Source: Hormiphora californensis (taxonomy: Eukaryota; Animalia; Ctenophora). From it: a DNA stretch of 64,000 nt. The notes beneath the pieces are model-generated. The model had not been told where the DNA came from and did not search any database. It saw only the letters and a program-made list of their open reading frames with translations. Position 1 is the stretch's first letter, and every line of letters begins with the position of its first letter. Both the position numbers and the translations under genes were made by a program. Below are positions 302 through 22,313 of this stretch, one piece after another. The stretch is from positions 4,960,001 through 5,024,000 of the forward strand of contig CM035362.1 in the NCBI GenBank assembly GCA_020137815.1, written 5' to 3'.

Positions 302-804
302 CTGCCAGGTTTCCCCTCATTATACTTTTGCAGCAGAGTGTGTTCTGTTTTCCGAATCAACCGTACTTCCTCAGGATCCTTGAGACTTTGGTAATTGGCT
401 TTTGTGGCTGCAGAAAATGTAATTTATTTTAATCTATAAAAATAATCTATAAATATTATGTAGCTTGAGTCAAGATTTAGTCTTTGGCATATAATTATTT
501 TTGTTACCTCCCCTCCCATCCCCCCCCCCCCCCCCCCCCGTGCTAACATTTATGAGGCATACTTGATCATTGGCCCCTTTACCGTTTGACTGGTATCATA
601 CATGATTAATAATCAAACTTTGACGATAATCATTGATTATAGTCAAAGTTTGACAGTTTTATTTACAACAGTCAACGTTTGACAGTACATACTGAATAGT
701 AGTAGCTATATCACCCGATTATAGCGCACAGTAATACACTAAAGGCTCGCTTAGAAAAGTAGTGTGCTTGCACCGAACAAGAGAGGGGGGGGGGGGCAGA
801 GGGT

Positions 805-839
<35 letters not shown>

Positions 840-3800
840 GGGGCAGAGAGAGAGAGAGAGAGAGAGAGAGTGAGAGAGAGAGATAGGGGAGGAGAGAGGG
901 GGGGGAAGAGAGAAGGAGAAGAGGAAAAGAAAGAGGGGAGAAAAGGTTTTAGGTTGGGGCCCCTCGCGCTGATGTTTTTGGTGCGGCTAAAAGAGCTCGC
1001 GTGTGGTGTCATTCTTTCGTCAGATGGTCTTTGAGAGAGTGTGGGGCTATAATTAAGCGGGTGGTAGGGGGCGGGAAACCCGCTACTGCGAGGTTTCGGT
1101 GGCGGGTTAAAAAATTTTTTGGGGGTAGAAAATCGGCCAAAGGAGAGGAGTAGAGAGAGTAGTTTAGCTGGGGGATTTAGTAGACCCTATTAGTTTTAGA
1201 TAGATTAATGAGTCTTGGAAAGGCTAAGAAGAAGTAATTCTCAAACCCAGAGAAAAAAGAGATTAGAGAGGGGCAGCTACGTCTGCAGCTGTGTGACGTG
1301 TTGTGTTGTGTTGACTTGTAGTCAACAAACACAAGTGTAGAAGACTTTTTTACACCCAACACATATATAGCTACCCCCTCTATCTATCTATCAATCGCTC
1401 TCTCCCCTCCCCTCTCTCTCTCTCTCTCTACCCTATATCTCCATCTATTGGTTACCCTGCAGGTACGTTAATTTGGTAGCTATACTTACTTGAGTTAAAT
1501 AGGATGATCCGGCGAAGTCTGCTCAGTTCAAAACGGTCTGTCCCTAGATCCTGAGGTAAACGTATTTAAATTGCAAATTGAAACAACCATGTCCATGACA
1601 TGTCCATGACAACCAGACGTACCTTTAGTGGTATTACTATGGTGTCCATGACAACCAGACGTACCTTTAGTGGTATTACTATGGGGTCCATGACAACCAG
1701 ACGTACCTTTAGTGGTATTACTATGGGGTCCATGACAACCAGACGTACCTTTAGTGGTATTACTATGGTGTCCATGACAACCAGACGTACCTTTAGTGGT
1801 ATTACTATGGTGTCCATGACAACCAGACGTACCTTTAGTGGTATTACTATGGTGTCCATGACAACCAGACGTACCTTTAGTGGTATAACTATGGTGTCCA
1901 TGACAACCAGACGTACCTTTAGTGGTATTAAGGGTACGCTAACCAAAATTTTTTTTTCGAGTGCAGGGAAATCTCTCACCGTAGGGTTGTAGGCCATGCC
2001 AAGGAGACCTCAAATATGCAATTTGAGCTCTCAAGTCGAATTCATATTTTTGCTACAGCTGCTTGAAAAATGAACTGTAAATACGTTTTTGGCATCTCAA
2101 AAAAAAATTTTTAAAGATAGAAGCATGAAAATTTGGGGATTTGAAGAGGACATGAAGGGGAATAACCACAAAAAATTTTTTTGCAATCCGAGCTGATTTC
2201 CGGTCCTGAGATGGATTTCTTTTTTTCCACTTTAACGCCCTATTTGGCAAAGTTCCGAAAACATGTGAAAGCTGTAAATTGGTGAAAAGTTTCGTCTAAC
2301 GATTATCTAAGTGGCCATAAATTTTGGGCGTGTCCTTATTTGAGATAAGCTGTACAGAGTTTTTTTTGTGAAAGCCGTCATTTCAGAAATAAATAAATTG
2401 CCTGTATCTCAAAAACGGCTGATCGTAGAGACCTGAGACTATGCTTAAACGATTCAGAAGGTCCGATTTTGGGGGGGTCTTCTGAGAGACATTTTGCTCC
2501 TACTGCAACCGTTTTTTGCTGTAATTGCGAAAAACAAATTCTATGGAAAGGGCAAAAGCTAAACTCCAATATCCTGTAATTAGGGAATTGTGGCTAAGAA
2601 AGGACCGAAACTATGGAAAAATGTGTAACAAGCTAATTCCTTCACTATTTGGTCCATATGGGTCCCTATAATCACCAAAAACAAAATCACAAAAAATCCA
2701 CGATGGCGAAGATGGTTTTTTGTTTTTCGCAATTACAGCAAAAACGGTTGAAGTAGGAGCAAAATGTCTCTCAGAAGACCCACCCAAAATCGGACCTTCT
2801 GAATCGTTTAAGCATAGTCTCAGGTCTCTACGATCAGCCGTTTTTGAGATACAGGCAATTTATTTATTTCTGAAATGACGGCTTTCACAAAAAAAACTCT
2901 GTACAGCTTATCTCAAATAAGGACACGCCCAAAATTTATGGCCACTTAGATAATCGTTAGACGAAACTTTTCACCAATTTACAGCTTTCACATGTTTTCG
3001 GAACTTTGCCAAATAGGGCGTTAAAGTGGAAAAAAAGAAATCCATCTCGGGACCGGAAATCAGCTCGGATTGCAAAAAAATTTTTTGTGGTTATTCCCCT
3101 TCATGTCCTCTTCAAATCCCCAAATTTTCATGCTTCTATCTTTAAAAAATTTTTTTTGAGATGCCAAAAACGTATTTACAGTTCATTTTTCAAGCAGCTG
3201 TAGCAAAAATATGAATTCGACTTGAGAGCTCAAATTGCATATTTGAGGTCTCCTTGGCATGGCCTACAACCCTACGGTGAGAGATTTCCCTGCACTCGAA
3301 AAAAAAATTTTGGTTAGCGTACCCTTAATATGGTGTCCATGACAACCAGACGTACCTTTAGTGGTATAACTATGGTGTCCATGACAACCAGACGTACCTT
3401 TAGTGGTATTAATATGGTGTCCATGACAACCAGACGTACCTTTAGTGGTATTACTATGGTGTCCATGACAACCAGACGTACCTTTAGTGGTATTACTATG
3501 GTGTCCATGACAACCAGACGTACCTTTAGTGGTATTACTATCATGGTGTCCATGACAACCAGACGTACCTTTAGTGGTATTACTATGGTGTCCATGACAA
3601 CCAGACGTACCTTTAGTGGTATTACTATGGTGTCCATGACAACCAGACGTACCTTTAGTGGTATTAATATGGTGTCCATGACAACCAGACGTACCTTTAG
3701 TGGTATTACTATGGTGTCCATGACAACCAGACGTACCTTTAGTGGTATTACTATGGTGTCCATGACAACCAGACGTACCTTTAGTGGTATAACTATGGTG

Positions 3801-4307
3801 TCCATGATGAATGATACAATATTCCGTATTGCCATATCGTATTGTCGATCTGTTCTCGATATTACGAGGTCCTTGTCTAATATCAGGTTATCTAAACGAA
3901 GACCTGGAGGGGAGGGGGGAGAGAAATAGTTATGGAGGGGGGGGGGGGGGGAAATAGTTACATATTTGATAAACAAGATGTATAGCCTGCTAACATTAAT
4001 AATGCAGCAGTGGCGAGCAGTGGCCGTCAATGGATGAATTCGTAACCACACCCCCACACCCCCTCGGCATATTAAATGGGTCGGAGGTGCACCTAAATAA
4101 ACTAACCACACTTTGTCTAATATTAATATTAATTAATTTAATTTATCCCTTTATATAAAACTAACCGCACGTGTTTTGAACGGAGAAACAGCAGATAGAG
4201 AATACAAGTATCTCAGGTGCGGTTGATGTTAAGAGTGCCTTCTGGTCTGACACTGACAAACTCTTAAACATCTGCATTTCACTTGCCCACTTGTGTATGA
4301 TTTCCAA
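302..4307 (-). CDS. Nuclear receptor ligand-binding domain (HNF4/NR2-like), 4 internal exons: 4166-4307, 3779-3903, 1490-1550, 302-407; gene incomplete at both ends
   Basis: GT-AG exons join in compatible phases (0-1, 1-0, 0-1, 1-2) to give LEIIHKWASEMQMFKSLSVSDQKALLTSTAPEILVFSICCFSVQNTC-GLRLDNLILDKDLVISRTDRQYDMAIRNIVSFIMDTIVIPLK-DLGTDRFELSRLRRIILFNS-TTKANYQSLKDPEEVRLIRKTEHTLLQKYNEGKPG(R/S). This contains the LBD signature WAxxxxxFxxLxxxDQxxLL and an E-x3-L-x2-IILF helix-8 motif. Confidence 0.88.
1600..1931. repeat. 42-bp minisatellite, distal half (8 copies of the splice-donor-containing unit)
   Basis: Unit ATGGTGTCCATGACAACCAGACGTACCTTTAGTGGTATTACT repeated in tandem. Confidence 0.97.
1932..3324. 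mobile_element. Non-autonomous foldback DNA transposon, Kolobok-like (TTAA TSD, GGG...CCC termini, about 600-bp TIRs)
   Basis: TTAA at 1928-1931 and 3325-3328; termini GGGTACGCTAACC / GGTTAGCGTACCC; arms about 1932-2537 and 2719-3324 are near-perfect inverted copies. RR..YY ends with TTAA fit Kolobok rather than piggyBac (YY..RR). Confidence 0.88.
3325..3806. repeat. 42-bp minisatellite, exon-proximal half (11 donor copies including the presumed authentic one)
   Basis: Same unit; one copy has a 3-nt insertion; the last copy overlaps the 3' end of nuclear receptor exon 3779-3903. Confidence 0.97.
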
Positions 4308-4370
4308 CTGAAAGGATCAGATGATAGAAAAATTGAAATTCTTGAGGGATATTTATTAACAATTCCGCGG

Positions 4371-4402
<32 letters not shown>

Positions 4403-4439
4403 AGAGAGGAGAGAGAGAGAGAGAGAGAGAGAAGAGGAA

Positions 4440-4872
4440 TTAATAAGGTGTAGGTAAGAAGGGGGGGGGGGGGCGTATTTCAAGCCTTTCATCTTCAAAC
4501 CCAACACGAAAACACCGTTTGGGAAAAAATTTTTCAAAAAAAAAAAAACTAAAAAAAAAACCACAAAAAAAAAAAAAGGGAAAGACCGACAAAAATTCCC
4601 CCTCCAACCCCCCCCTTTTTTTTTGCCCCCTTTTCCTTTTAAAGGGAAAAGAAAAAAAAACCCTTTTTTGGGTTTTTTAATTTTTAAAAGAGCTTTTTAA
4701 AAAGGGCCCAAAAATTATAAGAAGGGGGGGAAAGGGGGGCAAAAGGGGTTTAATTTTTTTTTTAGAGGGGAAAAATTAATGGGGAAAAAAAAGGGTTTTT
4801 TGGGGTTGGGGGTGGGGGGAGGCGGGTTGGAATTTGAAAATAACTAAATCCGGGGTTTTTTTGGGGGGGTTT

Positions 4873-4908
<36 letters not shown>

Positions 4909-7900
4909 AATGCCCCTTGGGAGCTGAAAAAAAAAAAGCTAAAAACCCATCAAAAAACCCAAAAAAAATTTCCGCCCCAAAATCAGGGTACCGAGGCCCT
5001 TTTTAGGGCTCGCCTCCCCCCTTTTTATCCCCCCTTTTTTCTCCCTCGTCCCCTTTTTTCCTCTCTCTCATAGGCTATTTAGCACTATTCCGCCCCCCCT
5101 CACAGTATCGTGATTGAAGCTAGGGCAGACAACCCCTAAAGGGGTTACTGAGGGGGGGGGGGGGGGTGACAGATTAGAAAAGATAAGACAAAAAAAAAAA
5201 AAAAAGATTCTCTCTCTCTCTTTTCTCTTCTCTCTCTCTCCCAACCTTCTTTCTTTCTCTTTATTTCTCTTATTTTATAAAAGTTAATATAGTATACAAA
5301 AAACGATACTTTTCCGGGGAAAAATTGAAAATTTAAATATTTTTGAAGCCGGGGCGAGGATTAATTTCAACTTACCTTTGCCAAAAGGTAAAAATACGTG
5401 ATTTTTTCTGGCAACTACGGAACACCCAATAATAATATGGATATCACAGAAAAATTTTTTGTAAAAAAAAAAAAGCTTAATTCGGATTATGGGTCCCGCG
5501 GAAAAATTTTGGAAAAGTTGCTTCTAGAAAAACCCACATGTTATCTTCCCCCTTTTGTCCAGGGACTGCATGTCAATTTAAAAGGTTTTTTTGGGCGATC
5601 TTTAGTCGAGGAGGAACAAAATGTCATTTCGGGTTCATTAACGGGGTTGGGATATTTTTTCGGGGCATGGGAAAGAACACCACCCCCCCTGCTAAAGGAC
5701 TGCTCCACTAATTTGGGATTTTTTCTACCCACCTGGGGAAAAGGGGAGAATTAATTTAATTTTCCCCCCCCTCTGTATAGTACGTCAGTACGGGGAAATA
5801 TTTGGCATTAAGAACTCATGAATACCTTCTCTCCCCAAATTTTTAGATGTTAAAAACACGACAATTTTTTCCAACAACACTGAAAATTCGGGAGAGTCAA
5901 GAAAATATTGATTGCCCCCGGGGGTTTGGGTTTGTACGTAAAAACACAACAACAACGTGTAGCATAACTATGTTGACAAAAAATTTTTGGGGAAGTTCGG
6001 GGAAGAAAGGCCGTATTGAATTTGTTTATCGGCTCGTACATCCAATAGTCGGACCCCCCATGATCGTAAAAGCCGCGCTGAGTCCGAAAAAAAAATTGGG
6101 GGGAAGTGGGTTTGCAAGGGTCCATAGGGGCATTGAAAACTTGCATTTCCCCGCATTTAAAAATTGGCAATCCCCCGGGGAAAGGCACAGTTTGGTAAAG
6201 ACGAAAAAAAAAGAAACTTTAAAAGAAATAAACTTTGTGGTGTTTATTGTAACGTACAAAATGTGCAGGGTTATGTTACCTTTTTAAAAGTACCTGTAAC
6301 GTTTGCCGTGTCTTGGCACTTCAAGTGGACCCCTGAAAGATGGTTGTTTGGGAGACGCCAGGATTTGCTTCCCCCTCCTTTTTTTTAGAGAGGAAAAACC
6401 TTTTTTTTTGTTAAATTCGTCCACCGGGGGGTGATGTGATGGGCTCTGGATTAGGTTAAAAACCCGGGTTAAAATACCATTTTAGCAATCATAATTTCTA
6501 CATTGGGGGCCCGCCTCATTGTAGGCCCGATATTTCTTACTTAATATTACCCGCAACCTGGGTCAAATCAAGAACCTAAACTATAAAAAGACCGTGGGAA
6601 AAAACCCAACGGACCTAAATAACGTTTCTGATTGGTGTTACTTGTAAAAAATTTACCTTTTTGCTTTTTCTCCCGTTCTTTTCTGCGGTTTTCTTTTTTT
6701 TCAGTTTAATAGAAATTTTCTTCCCTCTTCCCCTCCTTTTTCGACTGTAAAAATTTTTTCTAGTTGTCCTGGAGTAAGAGGAATTTAAAAAAATAGAGAT
6801 GTGTTTTTTCAAATCGTTTTTGGGAATTGGACACCCCTAAAAATTCATTATTCCCGGGTGGGTAACATGGTGGGGAAAAAATACGGTCTATAAAAGTAGG
6901 GAAGAACACACTGGTCTTTTAGCTTTTATGAAATGTAGGGGTGAAAAAGACAAGAAAATGTGGTTTTTATAACTTTGGGAAAGGGGAAGAAAAGGACCCG
7001 TGTTCTTTTTTTCAGGAATTAAATACGGCTATTTTTTAATTTGGGAAAAGGCAAACTAAACTTAATGAGTTAAAAAATCCCCTTTAAACCAAAAGTAATT
7101 TTTTTTAATTTGGTTTTTCATTATCGGGCCATAAATGCGTAGTTGTGGAAATGAATGATGAAAAGGGAAAATTTTCTAAAATAAAAATACATTTAATCAA
7201 ATTCATTAAAAATTTTCGGCCGTGGTTGGAAAACGTTAATCAAAATCACTAAAAAAAGTCTGCCCCGGCGTTTTGTGGGGGAAAAGGGTAATGGAAAAGG
7301 GGAGAACATAAGCGACACGAAAACCGGGGCCCAAAGGGGCAGTACAGCGAAAAATGCACTTTTTCCCGTGCGTTTGCAAATTTGGCGTCTCTTTACGTTT
7401 TCAACGGAAATGCAAGAAAACACCGTGTCAAACAAAATCGGCAAAATCAAATCTCCTCAAACGTAAAATAAAATGCTAAGGCCGGGAAATTCTCCCCCTT
7501 TTTTTTTAAAATGAAGATTTGATTTTTAAGTTTCGGAAAATCGACCTTTAAAAAGTTTTTTTAGGGGGTTTTTTTCGGAACAAAAAATTGTATAAAAGCC
7601 CAAAAGTCTCAAAACGTTTTATATTTATCCACAAGAATCCTAAAGGAATTCTGCGGGATTTCCCAATTATCAGCTTTTCACAAATTGTCTCAAATTGTGC
7701 CAGGCAAAAAAATTGATGCCTTATCTTTTGGTTACTTAAATTATATTAATTTTTTGAAAATTTTTCCTTTTCTAGACTGATTCGACTGAGCAAAATTTTT
7801 TGTGGAAAATATTTCGTTAATTACTTCACTCAAAAAAATACTTCTCTTGAAACAAAAGCACCAAAAAGAATTTCACTTGCATAATTCAGAATACTTCTTT

Positions 7901-10900
7901 TAAAAAAATACTTCTTCAGAACTGTATTCAAAGCCTAAAATAACTTAATCGAACAAAAGGTAATGTCTTCAAATCGAACTTACTTAAATTTTTTGGAAAA
8001 AAACAAAAAAAGAATTAATTTTTCATTTAACACGCGTGGAAATTTTAATAAAATGGGTTAAAATTTCTTGCTAGTTTTGGGGAAAGACTCCGAGCGCAGC
8101 TGCAGCAAAAAAGAAAAACAGACAAACAGACGCACAAATTACAACGGAGAGTGCAGCACCCTCCCAGCAGCAAAAAGAGGGGCCCCCGGGGTTCGGGCGG
8201 AAGAAAATCAGGGTGCTGATAAATTGAGGAAAACAGAAAAACGCTTGGAACCCTCAAAAAAGACAAACCTGAAATAAAATCTGGAAGTTTAACTGCCCGT
8301 ACGAGTCATACTTTGAAATTTTTTTGGTTCGGTTTGTAATTCAGAGTGAAACATGGAGATTGGAGATTCAAGAATTTTTTTCCGACCTACACAGGCCCGT
8401 GTTCATAAAATAAAACAAAAAAAAAAGATAAGAAAAAAAAAATCACAGACGAAAACGACAGCCCAAAGCCCAGTTTTTAAATTTTTTTTTTTTAAAATCG
8501 ATTGGCTGAAAAACCCAGTACGGACTTAATAGACTGGATTGGTTGTTTTATTGGTCCGGGGGGTTGTGAAGATGGGGGAAAGGGGTCTGTTACGGGAAGA
8601 AAAAAAGAGAGGGAAGGGAGTGAGTTGCCCCTTTTGGGTTATTACGAAAGGGGATATTTGTCTAGGGGGGTTGGGATGTAAGGACAGAACAGTTAGATGA
8701 CAATATTTTGTTAAATTTGGAGATTTTATCCCTTTCTTTTTTTTTTTACAAACATTTCAAACCCGTGAGGGTTTTAAGTTCAGTACAGGGGAAGGGGAGG
8801 GGAAAGGACAAGGGGGGGTTTCAATGGGGGCAAAATGACAGGGGTAAATTTGGGGATAAGGGACCCCGGGGGGGACAAAAGGAAAGGGACAGGCCCCCCA
8901 CTACCCCCCTTCCCCCGGGGCATCCTTGCCTCCTAATCACCCCCTTCCCCAGGTCATCCGCCTCCTAACCAACCCCCCCTTCCCCAGTTTTCTGACCCCT
9001 AACTCAAGTCACCCCCTTTCCCCCCGGGCTCCCGCCCCTAACCCCCCCTTCCCTGGTTTCCTGACCCCTAAATTTCCCCCCCCCCCTAGGCATCTGCCTC
9101 CTAATCACCCCCTTCCTAGGTCATCCCCTCCACCAAAACCCCCCCCCCGGTCCCCTGCCTCCAAAACCCCCTTCCTAGGTTATCCGACCCCCCAATTACC
9201 ACCTCCCTTCCCTAGGTTATCCGATAACTACCCCCTTCCCTAGGATCCTGACCCCTAACTCACCCCTTCCCAGGGGTTACCCGACCCCCAATGGTTTAGG
9301 TTATCCTGACCCTAAATCACCCCCCTTCCCCAGGTTATCCGGGCCCCAAAACACCCCCCCCCCCGGTCATCCTGCCCCCTAACTCACCCCCCTTTTCCCA
9401 GGGCACCCCTTCCCGGGTTTTTCCTGCCTCCTGATAGTACCTGATCATGACGTCCCGGTGTTGATTGGATACAAGGTGACGGGGGGTTTCGGGGAGGCCC
9501 AAAGTAAACCGGGGGGAAGTGGAAGGGTTTACAGGGGGGGGGGGGGGGGGAAAAAGGGGGAAAAAGGAGGGTTTACAAAGAGGGGGACAAAAGGACAGGG
9601 TTTTCAGTCAGGGGGACAGAAAAATTTTACCGCTGCAGCATGATACCTACCACACGGATGCCGTTTTTTATATTTTAATCCCAAAGGTTTTTATTTTTAA
9701 ACATGAGTGGCCCCCTAGCCTTTTGGGAAAATGTAAATTTGAACCCCAAAAGTAGGGAAAACTTAAAAACCTTATGAGGTCAGGTTTGCAACATGTTTTT
9801 TGGGTCTTTTCTTTTTTCAGAGTGACCTTTTTACATAGAGATAAACCCCGGCATGATCACCCCCGGCCCCAGAGTCTGGGCCCAGACATCTCTTTCCCCT
9901 TGTTGGGTTTCCTAACAACTGGGTTTTGTTGGTCGTTACGAAAATAGGTATGGAAATAATTACCTTTTTAATTGGGGGTTTTAAGTTCGAAGAAAGAGAT
10001 TGGGGGTGACGTAGTTTGTTGACGGTGAGGAGGGTATTCGAGATGAACGATAATTTTTAATTACTCAGAATAGAATATTTTTATGGGGTCGCCTCCGTTC
10101 GCCCCTTTATCATGATGAGCTGGAAAGAAAAAATCTTGGGGAATTTCTTCATTTTTGGCCCGGGCTTGGTTTTTAAATGGGGAAAATTATAAAAAAAAAT
10201 GAAGGGATTTTTAATTTTGAAAAAATTTTTTTTGGGGCGACAAAAGATTTTAATTCCCCCAGTTTTTGAAGCTTTTTTAAATTGAAAAATGAAAGGGAAA
10301 ATCTTTGATTTGAAAAAATTTAAACAAAAAACTGCAAATGATTTAAAGGGATTTCAAATTGAAAAAAAGGAAGTTCTTCTGGGGCAATCTTCAAACAAAA
10401 TTGCAGTGATTGAAAAATTTTCAAAGAATTTTTTAAATGAAGCAAAAAACTGAACAAATTTTTTTGCGGTTTTACTTCTAGGGGAGAAAGTTTTTTAAAG
10501 AAGCAGTATTTTTCCCAATTTTATTAGCGAAGCAATGCCATTTGTTATTTTGAGTTTTTCAAAAATTTTAAAATACTTTACAAAAAAAACTTACTTATTT
10601 TTGAAGATTGAGACACGAGACTAGCCCCTCTTGTAGATTTTTTTCTCCTATCAAGATGGTTTTTAAAAAACTCAAAATCGCCAAAAAATTGCAAAAAATT
10701 AAAAAAAGGGGCAGAATTGACAAAAAAATATATTATAATTCACCGACACCAACCTTTCGGGAAAATTTAGATTAAACATAAAGTGGGGCGGGAGCTCCGA
10801 CTCGAACCTTCAATTTCCCGCCGGTATTTTTTAAATGTAATAAAGATCCTTAACCTTTCTAGAACGGGTCCGGGGTGAAGGTCGGAAAAATGTAGAAAAG

Positions 10901-12900
10901 AATGGGAAGAACGAAAGGGGAGAGCGAAAGAGAGACCGAGAGAGAGAGAGGAAGGGAAACGAGAGAGCCGGCGGAGCCAGAAAGGGGGCGGGGAGAGAGG
11001 GGGGGGGAAAAAGGGGAATCAAAACCCCAAGAGAAAAAAAGACCGAGAGGAGGGGAACAAAAAAGAAAAGGGAAGAGAAGAAAAACGAAAGGGAGAAAAG
11101 AAAGAACAAAACATAGCGAAAGAAGAAAAAAAAAAAACCCCGGAAACCCCCGCCACCCCAAAAAAAATGAAAGGAAACGGATCAAATTGTTTTCCAACTC
11201 AATAAATGAATGGGGAGTCTTGTCCACCCGGGTTTGTCCCGTTTGTAAAGGTCATCGGTAACTTTAGTATCTGTAAGAAACAAAAGGGCCCGTTAAGTAG
11301 TAACTAGGGTAACTAGGGGGTTAACTGGGAGAAGTAGTAACTAGTAGGGCAGGTCGGTAGAATTTGACAGATTAGGGCAGGGCAATTAGGGCAGCTCGAA
11401 TTTAGGCAGCTCTGAATTAGGGCAGTTGTAAATAACTATTTTTAGTAATACTTTGAGGTATGGGATTGAAAAAAAGTAGGGGTGGTATTAAGGCTGGTGG
11501 ACCACACTGAATGGATGGTGGGTTCCCTGAGACTGTTTCGGGGTGGTTATCTGGGAAAGACTTGAAATGAAAAAAAGATTCCCCCTTTTTTCCTTCTCTT
11601 TTTTTCTCTTTTCCTCTTTCCTCTTTCCCCCCTTCTTCTCCCTCTCCTTCCCCGTTTCCTTGCTTTCTTTTTCTTCTCTCGGTCCATCACGCACACTCCC
11701 GCTCCTAAAATTTTGGCGGGGGGTTTAAACCCCCCCCCATCGTTGGATCTCCCGGGGGCCGGGGTAAAGGGTGGCTTCCCCTGGGGTTTTTGTCTGACTT
11801 GGGTTAAATAAGGGAAAAAATTTTTGGGGAGTTAAAACTCGGGTTGGGGGGTAAGCCCCCCCAAACAGGAAAAGAAACCCATTTTTTTGGGGCGGGCCCG
11901 GAAAAGGGGCCCGGGAAAAGAAGGAAACAAACTTTTACTTGGTAGGGGAACAGGAAAAGGGTTAAAAGGGGAAAAAAAATTTAAAAAAAAGGGGGGGTAA
12001 ATTCTTTTAGTTTCCCGGGCTTTTTCGGGTTAAAAAACCATTTGAAAGGGGAAGGGAAATTTGGCGGGTAAGAAAACAAATTTGGGGGGGGGGGGGCAAA
12101 CTGTCAATTTGGAAAAGGGGAAGCCCCAAACGGGTTTAAAATTTTTGGAAACCCCTTTTCATCCCCGTGGGGGAACCGTCCGGTAAACATGTCAAACCTT
12201 TTCCCTTTTTTTTCAAAACCCCCAGGTTTTAAAGGCCCCGATTTAGCTTTTAAGTGGAAAAAAATTTGCGTTTCATTTCAGGACTTTTTCTGGTTTCCCC
12301 CCTTTCTTTTTAAAAATCCGGGCCTGATTTTCCCCCCAAAGCTCCGATTTCCGGGTGGATACCCCTGGCCTTTTTAGGGGTTTTCCATTCTTTTGGTTGG
12401 GAAAATCCCCTTTCCGTATTTTTTCTTTCTGATCCTCTCCCATTCGTCGAATGGCTTTTTTTGGGCGCAAAAGAACGGCCTTTTCTAGGTTTTTGTTGAG
12501 CCAGGCAGGTCAGTCAGGGGTCCCCGTTTAATGTTTGGAATTTAGAAGATTTGGTTTTCCCTTTTTCAATTCCCTTTTTGTAGTCTTTTCCTTCCCCCTT
12601 TTGGATCGTTTGAAATTTTTGAACCCCGTGTGGGGGGGACTTGGGGCCCGGGTTGGAAATTTATGTCCCTTTTTTCCCCCCAAAGGCCCAAAACCGTTAG
12701 TTCCCAGTTTTTGAAACAAGCCCCCCTTTTAAACCACCCCCTTTTGGGTCTTGGGGGTTTAAAAGGGGGTTTTTTAAGGAAAAACGGGTAAGTATTCCCC
12801 CCTTTTGTTTTCTTTTTTTTTTTTAGGGGGTTTTTTCCTGCCTTCGGGGTGGACCAGGGGGGCTGATCAGCCAAGAGCTCCGATCACGATGGGGATGACC
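4440..12900. other. Homopolymer-inflated low-fidelity sequence (probable poor long-read consensus)
   Basis: Pervasive long A/T/G/C runs. Where a cleaner paralogue exists (11560-11800 vs 18110-18360; 12860-12930 vs 18710-18790) the differences include many homopolymer expansions. Confidence 0.75.
8920..9430. repeat. Degenerate C-rich tandem repeat (about 30-35 bp unit)
   Basis: Recurring CCCCTTCCYAGGTYATCCGMCYCCTAAYCAC-like motif; lies just downstream of a minus-strand CAG|GTACTA donor-like site near 9438. Confidence 0.7.
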
Positions 12901-15900
12901 GTGGCCTTTTTAAGATCCCAAATTCTGTGAGCTCCCTCCGTAGTTCTTGGTATTCTCGATCTTCTCCATCTCCCTGTCCGAGACTGACCTGCCCTTTTGG
13001 TACAGGGGACACGATCAGAAGGCTTCCTTTTTAGTTTTTGTCTAGAAGGACCACGTCAGGTTTACATGCCTCGATGGGGTTTTCCGTCTGAATGTGGGAA
13101 ATCCCAAGAGGATCTTGCACGTTCCATTCTCGAGCACTTTCTCTGCATAGTGGCGCCACCAACTTTGATTCGGTAGGAAACCCGTGGTCCTTGCATATTC
13201 CCCAGTGCAGGGAGAGTACTCGTCGTTTCGGAGTTTAAGTCTCCGTTGGCAAGTTTCGTGCATCCGTTTAGGATGTTGTTCCACGGATCGTGGGGTTGGT
13301 TACAGTCCGGGGGCCCAAACTCTCAGTACTTCATTCTCTTTCTGTATGGCAGCTCTCAACAGTTCGTGCGAATGGCTTGATCCTGGGCAGCAAAGCCCAT
13401 CGGCTTCGGGTATCTGTGAGGCTCTCTTTGTTGAGCCAGGCCCAGGTCGCGTCAGGTCGCACCCCCTTCTTCAAGTTGCTTCAGGAATCTTCCATGTAAG
13501 ACTTTGTGTTTCCATTTTTTATAATTTTCCGTCTGTAGTTTTTCCCTTTCGGGGCCCTTCTGCGTTCTGGAGGTCCAGTTAGCATATCTTCAGATTGCAT
13601 CGCGTGGGGAGGCCACGGATTTTGGGGTCCGTGGAATTGGGAAGAATGTCCTAGTCCTGTCTCTTCCTTCACAATGACATCTTAAATCCGTTTGGAGACC
13701 CCTTCCTCCCATTTTTTCCTGCAAAACATACAGCCGGGTCAATGGTCACTGTTGTCTTGATGACTCCTCTTCTCAGGATTTCCTAGTCATCATGTCTAGT
13801 CCACTGGCTTCGGAAGTGGACCAGTCCAGTATTCCGGCACCGTAACGGATCACAGGTATTGCCCATGTGTTGATTGCTGTGATGAGGTTCTTGCCTTGCA
13901 GGCTCGAGGACAGTAGTTTTCTTGACTCTTCGGGTGTTTTCGGCTTTGACCTTAGCTTCTTTTCTTGATGAAGAATACGGTCAACCTCCAGGATGCCGAG
14001 GTTTACTTATAGCCTCCATCTTCCACCTCGGGTATTCTGTCTCACTTGGCAGGTTATTCCCTGCATCCGATTTCTGACTCCGTCCACAATGTCTAGAGCT
14101 CCGCACTTGGATAGACCAAAGGACCTGTTGATGTCAGTGCTAAACTTCTCAGTGACTGCTAAGAGCTGCTGGAGGTCCTCTTTCGAGCTGGCCCATACAG
14201 CTTAAGATCGTCCATGTATAGGCGGTTTGGGTGGTTAATACTAATATTGGATCTGGAGTTACTGGGTCAGATAGGTGTAGCCTTTTCCTTGGGCAGTAGG
14301 AGCATGGACAGGGGATCAGGGCTTAATAAAGTGAAATAGGGGAGACGGAGGTCCCCTTGGAAGAGGCCTCTCTTGATGTGTTTTTTACCAAAGGTCTGAC
14401 CCAGTTTGGCCCATTTTTGACAATACACTGCTGGAATGATGACTCGAATAGTCGGATTATCTGAGGGTTTATCCCGAAACATCTCCATTGACTTAAGGAT
14501 CCAGGAGTGGGGGTTTCGAGTCGTATGCCTTCTGGTAGTCTAGGAAAGCCATATACAAGGAAGACTTTGAGCGTTTGCAATGACGTAGGATAAGTTGTAA
14601 TTGCTAGTTGTTCTTCATCCCGACTCTTTTTGCGGCACCCCTTGCTCTTCCGGAAAGGCCCTTTTAAACATCGAGGTGCTGGTAGATGTCTTCTGATAAT
14701 ATTCCTGTATACAGCTTCCAGAGGTTCGGAAGGCAGGTTTGGGTTTTAAAAGTTCCCCGGGTTTGACATTCCCTTTTTGGGGTCTTTAATCAGGAGGGAA
14801 GGTCCTGCCTTCAGTCATCCATGCCGGGACTTGACTCGTATAATGAGACTTTCGTTGAGTAGCTCAGCTATCCGACCATGGAGGCAAGTCGTGTGTTTAA
14901 TCCAGAAGGCGTGGGAGACCATCTATACCTGGGGTTGACCAGTTGGTCATCCTTCCTTCACCCGAGCTGCAACTCTTTCCGTGGTGATCTGAAACTCTTC
15001 CTGTTGGCTGGACTGTTTCAAGTTCTCCTGGACTCCGTCTAACCATTCTGCTTCAGTGTTATGACCAGCCTCGTTTTCCCAGATATTTTTCCAGAAGTTA
15101 AGCGTCCTGGTCTGGTCTTCGGGAGTACAATCGAGTGGCGTGGGGTCCGATCCACGTTTCTCCAGTTTCCGGTAAAAGTTTCGTTGGTTGTTCTGGAACA
15201 GGTTTGTCAACGAATGTCTGCTGCTTCTTCTTGTATCTCTTAATCTTTCCGGCCTTCGCTAGCAGTCTCTGCTTCACTTCTTCTATAACTTGTTTTATAG
15301 CCTTCTTGGGCAGCAGCGGGTATCTTCTATAGATAATATCTATAGTTTGGAACTTGTGGGGTGGCACCTCTGCTCATTTCGGTCAGCCTGGAGAGGTTCT
15401 GAGCGAAGCTTGGCGACACTCTCTTCGAGTCGTCGCAGCCACATAGGTTGTTTATTCCTTCTGGGGGTGCTGTTGGTGGGTTTCGCTTGGTGCCCTTAAC
15501 GCCCATCTGTTCTCGGACCACATGGGCTACGGCCATCAGTAGCGTGTTCAGTGTGGTAAGGTCTGGAGTTTCAAAGGACTTGATTACCGGGCTGAGTCGG
15601 TCCAATTGCCACTCGTAGCTTCCCCAGGGGACATGCCTCAAGTCGGTGACTTTGATGGAGCTTGGTTCCTCGAGTAGTTTCTTGAACTGCTCCACGATTT
15701 CAGGGTCGGTGATGGCCCTTCCTCTTCCTCTTCCTCTTCCACTGGGTTTGTGGGGGGTTCAATGGTTTCTGGGGGTGGGTTGTCCTCTACCACAGCCTGT
15801 CGTGCCGATTCAGTTGCTTCACGGTCGGCTACTGCCGCTGTTCTGATTCCATCAGCTTCTGTGGTGAAAGGAGTCCCGACTGAGTTATAGATCTCAGTTG

Positions 15901-16423
15901 GGATCTAAGCTGGTCATCAGTCTTGGAAGGGTAGGTTGTCTTTGCCCACCTTTCCTCCACTCGGTTCCATACTCCTCTTTTGTCAGGTTGTGAGTACGAG
16001 TGGATGAACACGAGCGTAATGTTCATTTCTGTGGTCCATTTCGTTCGTGGCGCTCTAGTTGGGGGGTGGTGGTGGGGGATCGGCGGTGTCCCCATTTGCC
16101 GAGGTACTCGGACCCGCAGTGTTATCATTCACCGTGAGATCCACTTCCGGGAGTATATTTAGGCCAGATGCTGCTAGCCCTGCTAGCATTCGCTGATCAG
16201 CCATCTCCTGCGGTGTTACCATGTGTCCAGATTTCTCTATTGATCTGAACTGGCTTGAGAGTTTGGCACCTGTTAATGGGTCGTGTCCCTTGTCTTCCCA
16301 TAGGCGTTCGAGCCTCTTCCAGGATCCGGATGTGCCTGGGTTGCTGCTGTAGTAGCAGTACACCAAGTCTAGGTTCTCTTGCTTAGACCAGACCTTCCTT
16401 GGTTTACGGGTGTTAGTACTCAT
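12780..16423 (-). pseudogene. Copy 1 ORF (2x Myb-like, RT, zinc knuckle region, RLE), heavily frameshifted
   Basis: Starts MSTNTRKPRKVWSKQENLDLVYCYY; fragments HIKRGLFQGD, NNQRNFYRKLEK, WWRHYAEKVLEN match copy 2. Frameshifts may be consensus errors rather than real decay. Confidence 0.85.
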
Positions 16424-16717
16424 GTCGAATAAGATGAGTAAGTTTTGGGGGTGAGTTTCAAACCAAATCACTGTGTATACATAGTCATCGGTTTGTTAGA
16501 AGAAGAGCCGGGTTTGGGGGTCTTAACACTGCCACCGGTGCACAGCGGGTAACGGAATCCCACCGCCACATTTGGTCCGTTAGTGGATGGTTTACCCGGC
16601 CATCCTTGCAGCTTTTCAGCACGAACCGACCACCTTTCAGCGTACGGGTGTGTATCTATATGTTCTATATGGTGGATCTGTAACAGGGACATATATGTGA
16701 AGCATTATGATCTAACT

Positions 16718-17743
16718 GGAACGGGGTAAACTATCCTCCCAGGAACAGGGTAAACTATCCTCTCAGGAACGGGGCAACTATCCTCTGTGGAGCGGGGTAA
16801 ACTATCTCTCAGGTGCGGGGTAAGGGGTATACTATCCTCTCCGGAACGGGGCAACTATCCTCTGTGGAGCGGGGTAAACCTATCCTCTCAGGCGCGGGGT
16901 AAGGGGGTATACTATTCTCTCTGGATCGGGCAACTATCCTCTCCGGAAACGGGGCAACTATCCTCTGTGGAGCGGGGTAAACTATCCTCTCAGGTGCGGG
17001 GTAAGGGGTATACTATCCTCTCCGGAACGGGGCAACTATCCTCTGTGGAGCGGGGTAACTATCCTCTCAGTGTGGGGTAAGGGGTATACTATCCTCTCCG
17101 GAACGGGCAACTATCCTCTGTGGAGCGGGGTACAACTATCCTCCTCAGGCGCGGGGTAAGGGGTATACTATCCCTCTCCGGAACGGGGCAACTATCCTCT
17201 GTGGAGCGGGGTAAACTATCCTCTCAGGCGCGGGGTAAGGGGGTATACTATTCTCTCCGGAACGGGGACAACTATCCTCTGTGGAGCGGGGTAAACTATC
17301 CTCTCAGGCGCGGGGTAGGGGGTATACTATCCTCTCCGGACGGGCAACTATCCCTCTGTGGAGATCGGGGTAAAACTATCCTCTCAGGTGTGGGGGTAAG
17401 GGGTATACTATCCTCTCCGGAACGGGGCAGACTATCCTCTGTGGAGCGGGGTAAACTATCCTCTCAGGCGCGGGGTAAGGGGTATACTATCCTCTCCGGA
17501 ACGGGGCAACTATCCTCTGTGGAGCGGGGTAAACTATCCTCCTCAGGTGTGGGGTAAGGGGTGTACTATCCTCCTCCGGAACGGGGCAACTATCCTCTGT
17601 GGAGCGGGGTAAACTATCCTCTCAGGCGCGGGGTAAGGGTATACTATCCTCTCTGGATCGGGGCAACTATCCTCTGTGGAGCGGGGTAAACTATCCTCTC
17701 AGGCGCGGGGTAAGGGGTATACTATTCTCTCTGGATCGGGGTA
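16718..17743. repeat. G-rich higher-order tandem array upstream of the copy 1 leader (about 78-bp trimer of about 23/24/31-bp monomers)
   Basis: GGAACGGGGCAACTATCCTCTGT / GGAGCGGGGTAAACTATCCTCTCA / GGCGCGGGGTAAGGGGTATACTATCCTCTCC cycling. Confidence 0.95.
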
Positions 17744-18601
17744 CCCTATTAAAGGGAGGTTTAGGGGGTTAGCAGATTAGTAACAGATTGGTTAGTGGGT
17801 TGTAGATAAAGGGGCATTGGAGGTCCACAGGTGGCTGGAAGGTGCCTGTTCCACGGTAACCCTAAGCCGGGGAAGGCGGGGTAGGAACGTAATAGTTGGC
17901 GATGATACACTGTGGGCCGCCTAGCCAAGAAGATCTTTTTGTGTTTTGTATTTTATGATTTTTTTCCGTATTTTGATACACAGCCACGCTTAGCCACGGC
18001 AACACGGACCTGAAAATCGATTCAAGGGGAAAAAGGGGATGGGGGAAAGGTACTCCGGTGTGACCTTTCCGGGGGGAAACCGAATAGGAGGTGGGTGGCA
18101 GGGGACAAACCCCCCCCCCTCTCTCTCTCTCCTCTCTCCCCTCTCTCTCTTCTCCTATTTGCTCTCTGCTCTCCTTCTATCCTCCTATCTTCTTCCTCTC
18201 TCCTCTGGTCCATACAGCCACTCCACATGGGGCCGTAGGTCCCATGTGGGACAGGGTTTTAATCCCGAGCCCGGATCTGTTGGGCTGAGGGCCGGAGGGC
18301 CTGGGATAAGGGGTAGGGGAGCATGTCCCAAGGGGTAGGTTGACTGCCCTATGGTTAGGGAAGAAAAATAAAAAAGGGGGTAAAGCTCATGGTGGCGGAG
18401 CAAAGACCCCCTAACTATCTGGGGGAGGGCGCCTGGCCTGGAACGGAATTAAGAAGGGGTAACCTTAAAACGGGAACAAAGGGTCTGGAACAAAACGTCT
18501 GGGGAAGGGAGGATGTCAGGCCCGTTAAGAGCAAGGAGGAACGGGTGAAAGAACGGTAAAAACTAATACAAATATACATCTAGGTGGTTACAGGAGGCTG
18601 A

Positions 18602-21600
18602 TTAACTATCGAGGAACTTCCGGAGCGTGTTCATCGAGTTGAAGAGGGATGACTTTTGGAGCTGTGAGGGGGTATAATTGGCGAGTTATAGCCATCAGGT
18701 AATTCTCCAGTCGGGGCTAACTCCGCCAAGGGCTCCAATCACGATGGGAATGAACCGTGGCCTTTTTAAGTTCCCAGATTCGTGTGACCTCTCTCCTCAG
18801 TTCCTGGTACTTCTCGATCTTTTCCAGCTCTCTGTCAGAGACTAATCGGTCCTTGGACGGCGACAATCGATTGAGTAGTGCCTCCCTCTTTTGCTTGTCT
18901 AGGAGGACCAGGTCGGGTTTGCACGCCTCAATGGGGTTGTCCGTCTGGATGTGGAAATCCCAGAGGATCTTGTAATTCTCATTCTCGAGAACTTTCTCTG
19001 CATAGTGGCTCCACCACTTTGATTCAGCAGGAAATCCACAGTCCTTGCACAATTCCCCAGTGTAGGGCAGCAGCTACTCGGTCGTGTCTGTGCTTATAGT
19101 CACCGTTGGCCAGCTTCTGACATCCGTTTAGGATGTGTTCGACTGACTCGTTATGCTGGTTGCATATGCGACACTTCTCGGACTCTCCAGGTTGTTTCTC
19201 GATAGCAGCTGTCAGCCAGTTTGTGCGAGTGGCTTGCTCCTGGGCAGCAAATACATCAGCTTCGGTGTATCTGCTGAGGGCTTCTCTTGTTGAGCCAGGC
19301 CCAGGTCGCATCAGGGTCGCATCCCCCTTCTTCAAGTTGCTTCAGGAAACGTCCATTGCAGTGATTACTCTTCCAGTTCTCTATCAAGCTGCGCCTCCAG
19401 TCTTCTGTCAGGGTTTCGCGCCTCCTCTGGGAGTTCCGTTAGCATTCCTTCTCTTCCCATTGCTGTTTTGAGTGCAATTATCTTGGGATCAGTTGAGTTG
19501 CTGAAGAACGTCGCTAGTCCTGTTCCTTCCCCTTACTATAACGCTTCAATCCTCTGGAGGCCTCTTCCTCCCTTCTTTCTGCTCACATATAGACGATCAA
19601 CGTCGCTGTTGTATTTCAAGAACCCTCCTTCTTAGGATTTTCCGAGTAATTAGGTCCAGTCCCTTGGCCTCTGTGGTGGTCCAATCCAGTATTCCGGCAC
19701 CGTATCGAATCACCGGTATTGCCCCACGTGTTGATTGCAACGACGAGGGTTTTTACCAGACAGGTTGGAAGACAGTAGTTTCTTAAGTCTTCTGGTTGTA
19801 TTCGGTCTTAACCTTGGCTTTTCATTTCCTTGATGTAGAATCGAGTCAGCCTCCAGGATACCAAGGTATTTATATCCACCATCTTCCACTTCCGGGATTG
19901 TCTTTCCACTCGGTACGATCTATTCCCTGCATTCGACTTCTGACTCCGTCCACGATGTCTAGTGCTCCACATTTGGATATACCAAAGGACATGTTAATGT
20001 CTGTGCTAAACTTCTCGGTGACTGCCAACAGCTGCTGTAGGCCCTCTTTCGAGCTAGCGTATAGTTTAAGATCGTCCATATAGAGGCGGTGGTTAATATC
20101 AATATCTGTGGTGGGTTCTTCTGGATCAGAAATGGTGTAGCCTCTTCCTTGGGCAGCTAGGAGCAAGGATAGGGGGATCAGTCCTATAATAAAATGTATC
20201 GGGGAGACAGAGTCTCCTTGGAAGAGGCCTCTTTTAATGTGGACTTTGCCTAAGGTGGAGCTGGATTGGACTAAATTAACTATACACTGCTGGAACGATG
20301 CCTCGAACAGTCGTATGATCTGTGGGTTTATTTTCAGCATTTCCATTGATTTCAGAATCCAGGAGTGTGGGATCGAATCGTACGCCTTCTGGTAATCAAT
20401 GAAGGACATATACAGGGAGGATTTGGTCCGTTTACAATGACGAAGTATAAGTTTGTCGATTGCTAACTGTTTCTTTACATCCTCTGCTCTTCCTGCGGCA
20501 ACCCTTTTGTTCTTCAGGGAAGAGTCCGTTAACGTCGAGGTGTAAGTAGATGTCCTCCGACAGTATTCCTGTATATAGCTTCCAGAGGTTTGGGAGGCAG
20601 GTTATGGGTCTGAAGTTCCCCGGATCGCTCATACCTTTCTTGGGGTCTTTCATCAGCAGGTATGTTCTGCCTTCCGTCATCCATCCTGGGACCTGGCCTG
20701 TAGTAAGGCTTTCATTGAGCAGCTCAGCTATCCGTCCATGGAGACATGCTGTGTGCTTGATCCAGAAGGCATGCAGCCCATCTATACCTGGGGACGACCA
20801 GTTGGTCATTCCCTTCACACGGGTGGACACTCTTTCCGTGGTGATCTGGAAGTCCTCTTGCTGGTTGACCGCCTCAAAGTTCTCTTGGATTTCATCTAAC
20901 CACTCTGCTTCAGTGTTGTGGCCGACGTCATTCTCCCATATGTCTTTCCAGAAGTTAAGTGTCCTCGTCTGGTCCTCTGGTGTGGATTCGTGCGGTATGG
21001 GGTCTGATCCTCGTTTCTCCAACTTTCTGTAGAAGTTGCGCTGGTTGTTCTGGAACAGGTTATTGTCAGCGAAGGTCTGCTGCTTCTTCTTGTATCGTCT
21101 TATCTTTCCGGCCTTCGCTAGCAATCTCTGTTTGACCTCCTCTATTACTTGCTTATAGCCTTTCTTGGGCAGGAGTGGGTATCTTCTATAGATATTATCT
21201 ATAGTTTGGAACTTCTGGGTGGCTCCTCTGCTCATTTCGGTCAGCCTGGATAGGTCTGAGCGAAGTTTGGCGACACTCTCCTCGAGTCGTCGCAGCCACA
21301 TTGGTTGTTTGTTCCTTCCGGGGGAGTTACTGGTGGTTTCACTTGGTGGCTTTATACCCATTTGTTCCCGGACAACATGGGCTACCACCATCAGGAGGGT
21401 GTTCAGTGTGGTAAGGTCTGGGACTTCAAACGATCTGATGACCGGACTAAGTCGGTCGATTACCACACGTAGTTTTCCCCATGGGACCTGTCTCAGGTCA
21501 GTGACCTTGATGAGGCTCGGTTCATCAAGGAGTTTTTTGAACAGCTCTCTGGTTTCAGGGTTAGGCGCTGGTTCTTCGTTTTCCACTGGGTTTGTAGGTG

Positions 21601-22270
21601 CAACGGGTTCTGGAGGTGGATTGTCCTCTGGCTCAGCCTGCCGAGCCGCGTTGTCGTTCTCACGTTCAGATGTGGCCGCTTCTCTGATTTCCATGAGCCT
21701 TTGTGGTGAAAGGAGTCCCGTATGAGTTATAGAATTCATTTGGGATCTGAGCTGGGTATCAGTCTTGGCAGGGTAGGTTGTCTTTGACCATCTCTCCTCC
21801 ACTCGATTCCACACTCCTCTTATTTCTGGCTGTGAGTACCAGTGGATAAACACGAGCGTAGTGTTCATTTCTGTGGTCCATTTCGTCCGTGGCGCTCTAG
21901 TAGGGGGTGGTGGTGGGGGTGGTGGTGGGGTTGGGGCATCGGTGGTGTCCCCATTCGTTGTTGTACTGGGACCAGCGGTGTTACTATTAACCGTGAGGTC
22001 CACTACCGGGAGTACGTTTAGGCCAGTTGCTAGGGCTTGCATATCTGTCATCTCCGTCGGAGTTACCATGTGTTCAGATTTCTCTATAGATCTGAACTGC
22101 CCAGCGAGTTTTTTACCTGGCAGTGGGTCATATCCTTTATCTTCCCACAGGCGTTCTAGCCTCTTCCAGGATCCGGATGTGCCTGGGTTACTGCGGTAGT
22201 AGCAGTATACCAAGTCTAGGTTCTCTTGCTTAGACCAGACCTTCCTTGGTTTTCGGGTGTTTGTACTCAT
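18602..22270 (-). CDS. R4-clade polyprotein, about 1200 aa with several frameshifts: 2x Myb-like, RT, CCHC zinc knuckle, restriction-like endonuclease
   Basis: FRPITCLPNLWKLYTGIL, IDYQKAYDSIPHSW, RGLFQGDSVSP, HRLYMDDLKLYA (RT); CRICNQHNESVEHILNGC (CCHC); YKHRHDRVA, KPDLVLLD, EKIEKYQEL (RLE); ends QKSSLFNSMNTLRKFLDS-stop. Confidence 0.93.
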
Positions 22271-22313
22271 GTCGTATAAGATGAGTAAGTTTTGGGGGTG
22301 AGTTTCAAACCAA

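What the first reader, a model, noticed from the sequence alone, without database searches (positions are those of the whole stretch)
1600..3903. A minisatellite made of a splice junction: 19 tandem 5' splice sites in a nuclear receptor LBD
Seen: on the minus strand the 42-bp unit is the last 27 nt of the exon (ATGGACACCATAGTWATACCACTAAAG = MDTIVIPLK) plus the first 15 nt of the intron (GTACGTCTGGTTGTC). AAG|GTACGT therefore occurs 11 times proximal and 8 times distal to the Kolobok-like insertion. The exon frame stays open through all 11 proximal copies, and the only indel is 3 nt. Inference: choosing donor n adds n x (VRLVVMDTIVIPLK) at the helix 7-8 junction of the LBD, giving an isoform ladder whose range depends on VNTR allele length. 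Every junction is also AG|GT, so recursive splicing or new-intron formation is possible.
Basis: partly seen in the sequence, partly recalled or inferred. Interest (0 to 1): 0.82.

Follow-up and report, generated by a model that had tools for sequence, protein, structure and literature searches.

The report
Repeated splice donor in comb-jelly receptor
In a comb jelly's nuclear-receptor gene, a 42-base piece spanning the end of one exon and its splice signal is repeated to give 19 identical splice signals, but the one published transcript-derived protein uses the first, so the extras are likely mostly silent, as in similar repeats already known from lancelets and several human genes.

Summary
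A 42-bp unit (27 nt exon end, 15 nt intron start) gives 19 AAG|GTACGT donors, 11 before and 8 after a 1,393-bp TTAA-flanked Kolobok-type element. The frame stays open through the first 11. Short-read word depth matches the assembled array (12.1 observed, 12.3 expected), and a second study's animal also has it, so it is no artefact. The gene is the ctenophore zinc-finger-less NR2A-like receptor: 144 of 144 residues match the published EST-derived Pleurobrachia PpNR1, which joins donor 1 straight to the next exon. No RNA contig here reached this junction, so minor use of later donors is untested. The layout is known: amphioxus 'mirages' and human F7, CBS, 6-16, LMNB2 and PDGF, where only the first one to three donors are used. 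The scan noted it before in at least 33 genomes and in other genes of this one. Recursive splicing is unlikely. Added here: this intron is absent from genomic ORFs of two other ctenophore lineages, and a diverged relative carries the same junction duplication, so an old mirage likely grew in a lineage-specific intron. Verdict: new member of a known kind; the isoform ladder is unsupported.

The parts
4166..4307 (-). Exon A of the nuclear receptor LBD (helices 3-5)
   Evidence: Pfam Hormone_recep E 1.7e-4; 72-85% identity to 8 relatives; RNA-type contigs of X7 and X12 leave the genome at its acceptor
3904..4165 (-). Intron A|B, 262 nt, GT..AG
   Evidence: Spliced contig in run X7 (RNA is the tool's guess) skips exactly 262 nt
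3779..3903 (-). Exon B, ending in donor 1 (AAG|GTACGT); its last 27 nt are the exon half of repeat unit 1
   Evidence: tblastn 63-82% to orthologues; identical to PpNR1
3329..3805 (-). Proximal 42-bp array: 11 full units with donors 1-11, then the first 12 nt of the interrupted unit; exon frame open
1932..3324 (.). Non-autonomous Kolobok-type DNA element, 1,393 bp, GGG...CCC ends, arms of about 600 nt at 99%, TTAA duplicated at 3325-3328 and 1928-1931; inserted at a TTAA made by a G>T unit variant
   Evidence: signature from PMC9587614; longest stop-free stretch 82 aa
1601..1927 (-). Distal 42-bp array with donors 12-19; out of frame and behind stops while the element is present; donor 19 lies 72 nt from the acceptor
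1551..1600 (-). Unique 3' end of intron B|C with the CAG acceptor
   Evidence: sequence; a diverged version follows the array in run X5
1551..3778 (-). Intron B|C as a whole, 2,228 nt, phase 0, almost all array plus element; absent from the genomic ORFs P0029/P0030 and P0031
1490..1550 (-). Exon C (helix 8)
   Evidence: tblastn; identical to PpNR1
302..407 (-). Exon D (helix 9 and the loop before helix 10)
   Evidence: tblastn E 1e-10; exons A-D join to 144 residues without a stop

Best explanation
This is a splice-junction minisatellite (a 'mirage') in the comb-jelly receptor gene NR1: one 42-bp duplication across the exon B donor was amplified to 19 donors, and the spliceosome likely uses donor 1 for most transcripts, so the other 18 would be removed with the intron. 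Shown: the anatomy, the copy number in the assembly, the array in a second animal, and donor 1 in the one published transcript-derived protein. Inferred order of events: (1) the B|C intron was gained at an AAG|G site in the Pleurobrachia lineage (or lost in the others); (2) a 42-bp local duplication copied its donor, early enough to be shared with a diverged relative (P0028); (3) unequal exchange or slippage expanded and homogenised the units; (4) a G>T variant made TTAA in some units and a Kolobok-type element inserted there, while another animal likely took a different, TA-targeting element in the same unit. Inferred mechanism of silence: the most upstream donor wins, as shown for human F7. 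Some leak to donors 2-3 is plausible, as for 6-16 and CBS; it would give in-frame +14 or +28 residue forms that are likely tolerated noise.
For: PpNR1, assembled from Pleurobrachia pileus ESTs, matches exons A-D at 144 of 144 residues (compared by eye) and has one MDTIVIPLK followed at once by exon C. Of the 8 relatives, the 6 that span the junction have no insertion there. Known cases use donor 1 only (F7, LMNB2, PDGF) or donors 1-3 (6-16, CBS) (PMC1557585); mirages do not disturb splicing in amphioxus (PMC3087553). The open frame is expected without selection (1 of 126 single changes gives a stop). The array has taken a frame-destroying element in this allele, and a second element's junction lies in the unit in X5, which fits an unconstrained intron. 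In P0028 donor 2 is only 43 nt from the acceptor against 85 nt for donor 1. Another array in this window starts at an apparent donor (37304-37566).
Against: No RNA from an animal with this allele was seen across the junction: the spliced X7 contig stops at 3830, 51 nt short of donor 1, and 0 of 2 RNA-type runs covered exon C. PpNR1 rests on four ESTs, and the array size in that animal is unknown. All donors are equally strong (8 of 9 matches to the U1 consensus) and each carries 27 nt of the real exon context. The first-donor rule was shown in mammalian cells; if ctenophores define short introns across the intron (recalled for many invertebrates, untested here), later donors, even donor 19 at 72 nt from the acceptor, could compete. 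The unit has kept a frame-preserving 42-nt period in two diverged lineages, and the single indel is 3 nt.
Confidence: 0.75

Rival explanations
1. The extra donors compete enough to matter for dose. Later donors or intron retention take a share of transcripts, many unproductive (element, stops), so array length and insertions act as a cis-acting variant of receptor level.
For: Identical strong donors with exon context; 6-16 and CBS use two further sites; alleles differ in what is inserted; a 1.4-kb near-perfect hairpin in the intron could change the effective donor-acceptor distance (inference).
Against: PpNR1 uses donor 1; F7 mutagenesis shows no competition from downstream copies; no expression data here.
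Confidence: 0.13
2. One reading: a selected isoform ladder in which donor n adds (n-1) x VRLVVMDTIVIPLK at the helix 7-8 junction and changes ligand binding or dimerisation.
For: Frame open through 11 of 11 proximal donors, and through all 19 if the element is absent; the only indel is 3 nt; the same 42-nt in-frame period in P0028; each added unit restores the end of helix 7.
Against: No protein with a spliced repeat was found: the one hit with the repeat, P0028, is an unspliced read-through. The open frame is near the neutral expectation. The insert is 64% hydrophobic at a length-conserved position of the fold. The element cuts the ladder at 11. No known case uses more than three donors.
Confidence: 0.07
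3. The AG|GT junctions serve recursive splicing, or the array itself created the intron by Rogers-type duplication.
For: Each unit holds AG|GT; the intron is missing in P0029/P0030 and P0031 and is nearly all repeat; mirages were proposed as a source of new introns.
Against: The site is AAG with pyrimidine fraction 0.53 against CAG and 0.59-1.00 in the four real acceptors (the pyrimidine gap to the weakest is small). Steps of 42 nt are very short. The unit already contains intron sequence, so the intron came first. The intron start does not resemble exon C (shuffle p 0.998) and its end does not resemble exon B (p 0.83); exon C starts GA, not GT.
Confidence: 0.03
4. The array is a long-read assembly artefact.
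For: Nearby sequence (about 4,400-14,000) is of poor quality and the upstream exons are not found there.
Against: Depth ratio 12.1 against 12.3 expected; 13-14 in another study's animal; the same duplication in P0028; shared variants among units and a clean TTAA duplication.
Confidence: 0.02

Closest known systems
Human F7 intron 7 37-bp VNTR, with 6-16 (25 pseudo-sites), CBS intron 13 (15-20 units), lamin B2 and PDGF intron 4 minisatellites (PMC1557585: abstract, introduction and discussion read; the other four genes seen only as cited there)
   Same: First unit spans the exon-intron boundary; the exact donor is reiterated down the intron; similar copy number; the authentic first donor is the one seen in mRNA.
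   Different: Here the unit is mostly exon (27 of 42 nt; F7 has 4 of 37), is a multiple of three and stop-free, so leak would give in-frame protein; the array is split by a DNA transposon; the host is a ctenophore; donor usage is not measured.
Amphioxus 'mirage' minisatellites (Adh3, globins BflGb6 and BflGb9) (PMC3087553: passages read)
   Same: Tandem duplications of an exon-intron boundary in a marine invertebrate, with retained splice signals, near-identical internal units and normal splicing; proposed there as a route to new introns.
   Different: This one sits in an intron that other ctenophore lineages lack; length change between alleles, shown for mirages, was not shown here.
PpNR1 of Pleurobrachia pileus, ctenophore NR2A (HNF4)-like receptor without a zinc-finger domain (PMC3038971: passages and supplementary file 3 seen)
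   Same: 144 of 144 residues of exons A-D identical.
   Different: The paper gives no gene structure for PpNR1 in the passages seen; the intron and its array are not mentioned there.
Kolobok superfamily, non-autonomous elements (PMC9587614: passages read)
   Same: TTAA target duplication with 5'-RR and YY-3' ends.
   Different: No coding capacity; nearly palindromic (arms of about 600 nt); no autonomous partner identified.

Membership tests
Splice-junction minisatellite ('mirage', F7 type) | Head-to-tail repeat whose first unit spans a real exon-intron boundary | tested here: met
   boundary fixed by identity to PpNR1 and orthologues
Splice-junction minisatellite ('mirage', F7 type) | Splice signal reiterated in the intron | tested here: met
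   19 of 19 full donors read AAG|GTACGT
Splice-junction minisatellite ('mirage', F7 type) | The authentic (first) site is used in mRNA | tested here: met
   EST-derived PpNR1 joins donor 1 to exon C; one sequence, allele unknown
Splice-junction minisatellite ('mirage', F7 type) | Downstream sites silent or limited to the nearest one or two | tested here: inconclusive
   No RNA contig reached the junction in the 4 RNA-type runs laid
Splice-junction minisatellite ('mirage', F7 type) | Copy number varies between alleles | tested here: inconclusive
   Ratios 12.1 (X1) and 13-14 (X5) count majority-type words only and do not show a length difference; P0028 shows two units but may be a collapsed assembly or another species; insertions and the intron end do differ
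Ctenophore NR2A-like receptor (PpNR1 type) | Nuclear receptor ligand-binding domain, orthologous to PpNR1 | tested here: met
   Pfam PF00104; identity to PpNR1; relative P0001 hits RXR and HNF4 structures at E 1e-17 to 1e-21
Ctenophore NR2A-like receptor (PpNR1 type) | No zinc-finger DNA-binding domain | tested here: inconclusive
   No zf-C4 hit in 2 of 2 full-length relatives scanned; the window's own N-terminal exons were not found
Kolobok (non-autonomous) | TTAA target-site duplication | tested here: met
   3325-3328 and 1928-1931
Kolobok (non-autonomous) | 5'-RR and YY-3' termini with inverted repeats | tested here: met
   GG...CC ends; 581 of 587 arm positions pair
Kolobok (non-autonomous) | Autonomous partner with a Kolobok transposase and the same ends | not testable with these tools
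   No genome is held; the element is single-copy in the window and non-coding
Recursive splice sites | YAG acceptor with pyrimidine tract directly followed by GT, in long introns (definition recalled) | tested here: not met
   AAG, pyrimidine fraction 0.53, 42-nt spacing
Intron gain by tandem duplication of exonic AGGT (Rogers model) | Intron ends are copies of the flanking exon sequence and the downstream exon starts with GT | tested here: not met
   No similarity above shuffles (p 0.998 and 0.83); exon C starts GA

The most novel reading that the evidence does not exclude
A young, lineage-specific intron in a comb-jelly nuclear receptor was built out by amplifying its own donor. The in-frame 42-nt period has been kept across diverged Pleurobrachia-type lineages because donors beyond the first are really used, giving an allele-dependent series of ligand-binding domains with 14-residue steps at the helix 7-8 junction, with transposon insertions capping the series.
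Probability: 0.08. Interest if true: 0.62.

Novelty: new member of a known kind. Interest (0 to 1): 0.2.

Why it matters
As it stands it matters little: one more junction minisatellite, a kind described in humans and amphioxus and, by the scan's own unchecked notes, common in this genome. Its use is as a test case. The unit is in frame and donor 1 carries a diagnostic base, so ordinary RNA-seq can measure whether the first-donor rule found in mammalian cells also holds in ctenophores, a lineage that split near the base of animals. If later donors were used in earnest, a non-coding repeat would set the length of a receptor's ligand-binding domain, which none of the papers read here reports.

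Tried and rejected
No whole genome is held, so other copies of the element and the upstream exons could not be sought outside the window. Of 14 runs listed I laid 7, on two short stretches with at most two units each (3735-4365 and 1432-1664), so no call spans the array or the element junctions. On the first stretch X14 gave no contig, X12 covered 4221-4310 only, and X7 stopped at 3830. On the second, X7 and X11 gave nothing, and exon C was uncovered even in DNA runs X1 and X6: no evidence either way. A 12-letter loose end in X1 at depth 4.8 looks like library adapter (recalled) and was set aside. A scan of JGI metagenomes for a 26-base motif that fits both spliced and unspliced forms found 0. 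A scan with P0001 gave 5 loci of relatives at 63-94%, not examined further. Exon B against longer proteins gave none of 8 candidates; exon B plus one unit gave P0028 only. A tree of the 58-residue B+C segment (10 rows, none dropped) left the window's position open, so gain against loss of the intron is not settled by it. The AlphaFold model of P0001 has mean pLDDT 34: used only for helix boundaries, no fold search run. The ESM Atlas gave no hit for the N-terminal region. PMC10078293 and PMC8527503 (passages) added nothing on this locus; PMC306954 (6-16 paper) is not held. Paper searches listed no description of this array; the library lacks most subscription journals.

Full report
1. Observation. 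The repeat is as described. AAG|GTACGT occurs 19 times on the minus strand, 11 times between 3779 and 3356 and 8 times between 1917 and 1623, and never on plus. The period is 42 with 96-98% matches. The unit is the last 27 nt of exon B (MDTIVIPLK) and the first 15 nt of the intron (VRLVV). Joined in silico to exon C, 11 of 11 proximal donors keep the frame and 0 of 8 distal ones do. The only indel is +3 nt; three kinds of substitution are shared among units. The arrays are parted by a 1,393-bp element (1932-3324) with TTAA on both sides, GG...CC ends and arms of about 600 nt. That is the Kolobok signature given in PMC9587614 (passages). It sits in a unit where a G>T variant made TTAA; without it the unit is 42 nt and the frame would stay open through all 19 donors.

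2. Is it real? The 42 majority-unit 31-mers occur 12.26 times on average in the window. In short-read contigs of run X1 the array contig has depth 289 and the flanking contig 23.8, a ratio of 12.1. X1 may be the source sample, so this checks the assembly only. Run X5, from another study and differing at 6 exon sites, gives 13-14, and X6 of the same sample holds the unit at depth 3650. These ratios count majority-type words and do not show a length difference. The alleles differ in other ways: X5 has another intron end and a junction to a small TA-flanked element.

3. The gene. Exon A hits Pfam Hormone_recep and finds 8 relatives at 72-85%; one cluster includes Bolinopsis microptera XP_063693870. 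Exons A-D join to 144 residues without a stop and are identical, by eye, to PpNR1 of Pleurobrachia pileus in supplementary file 3 of PMC3038971, an EST-assembled NR2A-like receptor without zinc fingers (passages). A spliced contig in X7 confirms the 262-nt A|B intron. The B|C junction aligns to the end of helix 7 of RXR-gamma; a low-confidence model of P0001 (pLDDT 34) puts helices at 369-391 and 397-409 with the junction after 391.

4. Which donor is used? PpNR1 has one MDTIVIPLK followed at once by exon C: donor 1. This is one sequence from four ESTs, and the allele is unknown. The 6 of 8 relatives that span the junction have no insertion. My RNA tests failed for lack of cover: of 4 RNA-type runs laid, none reached the junction. 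A motif scan of metagenome contigs found 0. Protein searches found one sequence with the repeat, P0028, an unspliced read-through. So the ladder has no support and minor use is untested. The open frame is weak evidence of selection: 1 of 126 single changes gives a stop, the period is a multiple of three by a 1-in-3 chance, and there is a single indel. Against recursive splicing: the sites are AAG with pyrimidine fraction 0.53, all four real acceptors are CAG at 0.59-1.00, and the steps are 42 nt.

5. History. In genomic ORFs P0029/P0030 and P0031 exons B and C are continuous while the neighbouring introns appear conserved, so this intron is lineage-specific. That vertebrate HNF4 and RXR genes also lack an intron here is recalled, not checked; the tree did not resolve gain against loss. 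The intron did not arise as a copy of its flanks (shuffle p 0.998 and 0.83), and the unit contains intron sequence, so the intron likely preceded the repeat. P0028 shows the same duplication with the same breakpoints in a relative whose intron end has diverged: 85 nt from donor 1 and 43 nt from donor 2. It may be a true two-unit state or a collapsed assembly.

6. Mechanism and rivals. Most likely (0.75): a tolerated junction minisatellite, donor 1 dominant, possibly with slight in-frame leak to donors 2-3. Shown: anatomy, reality, donor 1 in one transcript-derived protein. Inferred: order of events, upstream-first selection, neutrality. Rivals: competition large enough to change receptor dose (0.13); a selected isoform ladder (0.07); recursive splicing or intron birth from the array (0.03); artefact (0.02). 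The main doubt is that the first-donor rule was shown in mammalian cells, whereas definition across short introns could favour later donors; donor 19 lies 72 nt from the acceptor.

7. Known relatives. PMC1557585 (abstract, introduction, discussion) describes this layout in human F7 and cites 6-16, CBS, lamin B2 and PDGF: donor 1 only in three genes, donors 1-3 in two. PMC3087553 (passages) describes amphioxus 'mirages' that leave splicing normal and proposes them as a route to new introns; I was led to it by the scan's earlier notes. Those notes list 75 findings with these words in at least 33 genomes and several in this genome; they are unchecked AI notes, and one reports use of an internal copy in another animal. 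In this window I found one more array that starts at an apparent donor and one that starts just inside an intron. Searches listed no paper on this array; subscription journals and bioRxiv supplements were not visible.

8. Verdict. Observation confirmed, interpretation partly supported. New member of a known kind; interest 0.2. The most novel reading not excluded, real allele-dependent use of later donors in a young intron, has probability about 0.08 and would deserve about 0.62.

Noticed in passing
P0029, P0030, P0031 (genomic read-through ORFs; contigs of 244 kb, 7 kb and 38 kb): Exons B and C are one exon in these two ctenophore lineages, while the flanking introns appear at the same places. 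The intron that holds the array is lineage-specific; gain is more likely than two losses but is not shown (the tree is unresolved).
   Followed up: partly
P0028 (70 aa, 1,889-nt contig): A diverged relative reads exon B, one extra unit with two amino-acid changes, then a different intron end and exon C out of frame: an 85-nt intron with two donors, 43 nt from donor 2 to the acceptor. It is either a two-unit early state or a collapsed array; only the protein was seen.
   Followed up: partly
run X5, laid on window 3760-3789: A contig at 2.5 times single-copy depth joins the unit's TA to the end of a small TA-flanked element (ends CAGTCGG) like those near 56,940 and 61,800 of the window: likely a second, independent insertion in the array, though another locus is not excluded. 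X5 also differs at 4 sites in exon A and 2 in exon B.
   Followed up: partly
window 37304-37566 (+): A 25-bp array (10.5 copies) starts at an apparent donor (GTGAGT) of a gene with a weak NAD-dependent epimerase hit on a nearby exon (E 0.022); later copies have lost the donor. The exon edge is inferred from sequence only.
   Followed up: partly
window 50545-50684 (+): A 32-bp array begins about 7 nt after an apparent donor in a TRPM-like gene (Pfam LSDAT_euk E 9e-16 at 51001-51144).
   Followed up: partly
window 3892-3903 (-): Exon B starts with two more residues than in the Bolinopsis-type relatives. The X7 contig and PpNR1 both confirm the acceptor at 3903, although another AG lies 11 nt further in.
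   Followed up: yes
P0001 residues 35-158 (not in the window): The N-terminal region of these zinc-finger-less receptors is strongly conserved and tryptophan-rich. By eye it recalls IRF or ETS winged-helix domains (recalled, untested); Pfam, the Atlas and a low-confidence model gave no support. It deserves a proper fold with a deeper alignment.
   Followed up: partly
P0009 (XP_063693870, Bolinopsis microptera): A lobate ctenophore has a close PpNR1 orthologue that by eye is far from both MlNR1 and MlNR2 of PMC3038971, so lobates may have a third receptor.
   Followed up: no
window about 12,800-17,750 and 18,600-24,000 (-): Two related non-LTR retrotransposon copies (reverse transcriptase and restriction-like endonuclease motifs by eye), each led by a complex 24-31-bp tandem array.
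   Followed up: no
window about 4,400-14,000: Homopolymer-rich, low-quality sequence; the upstream exon seen in RNA loose ends was not found in the window.
   Followed up: partly
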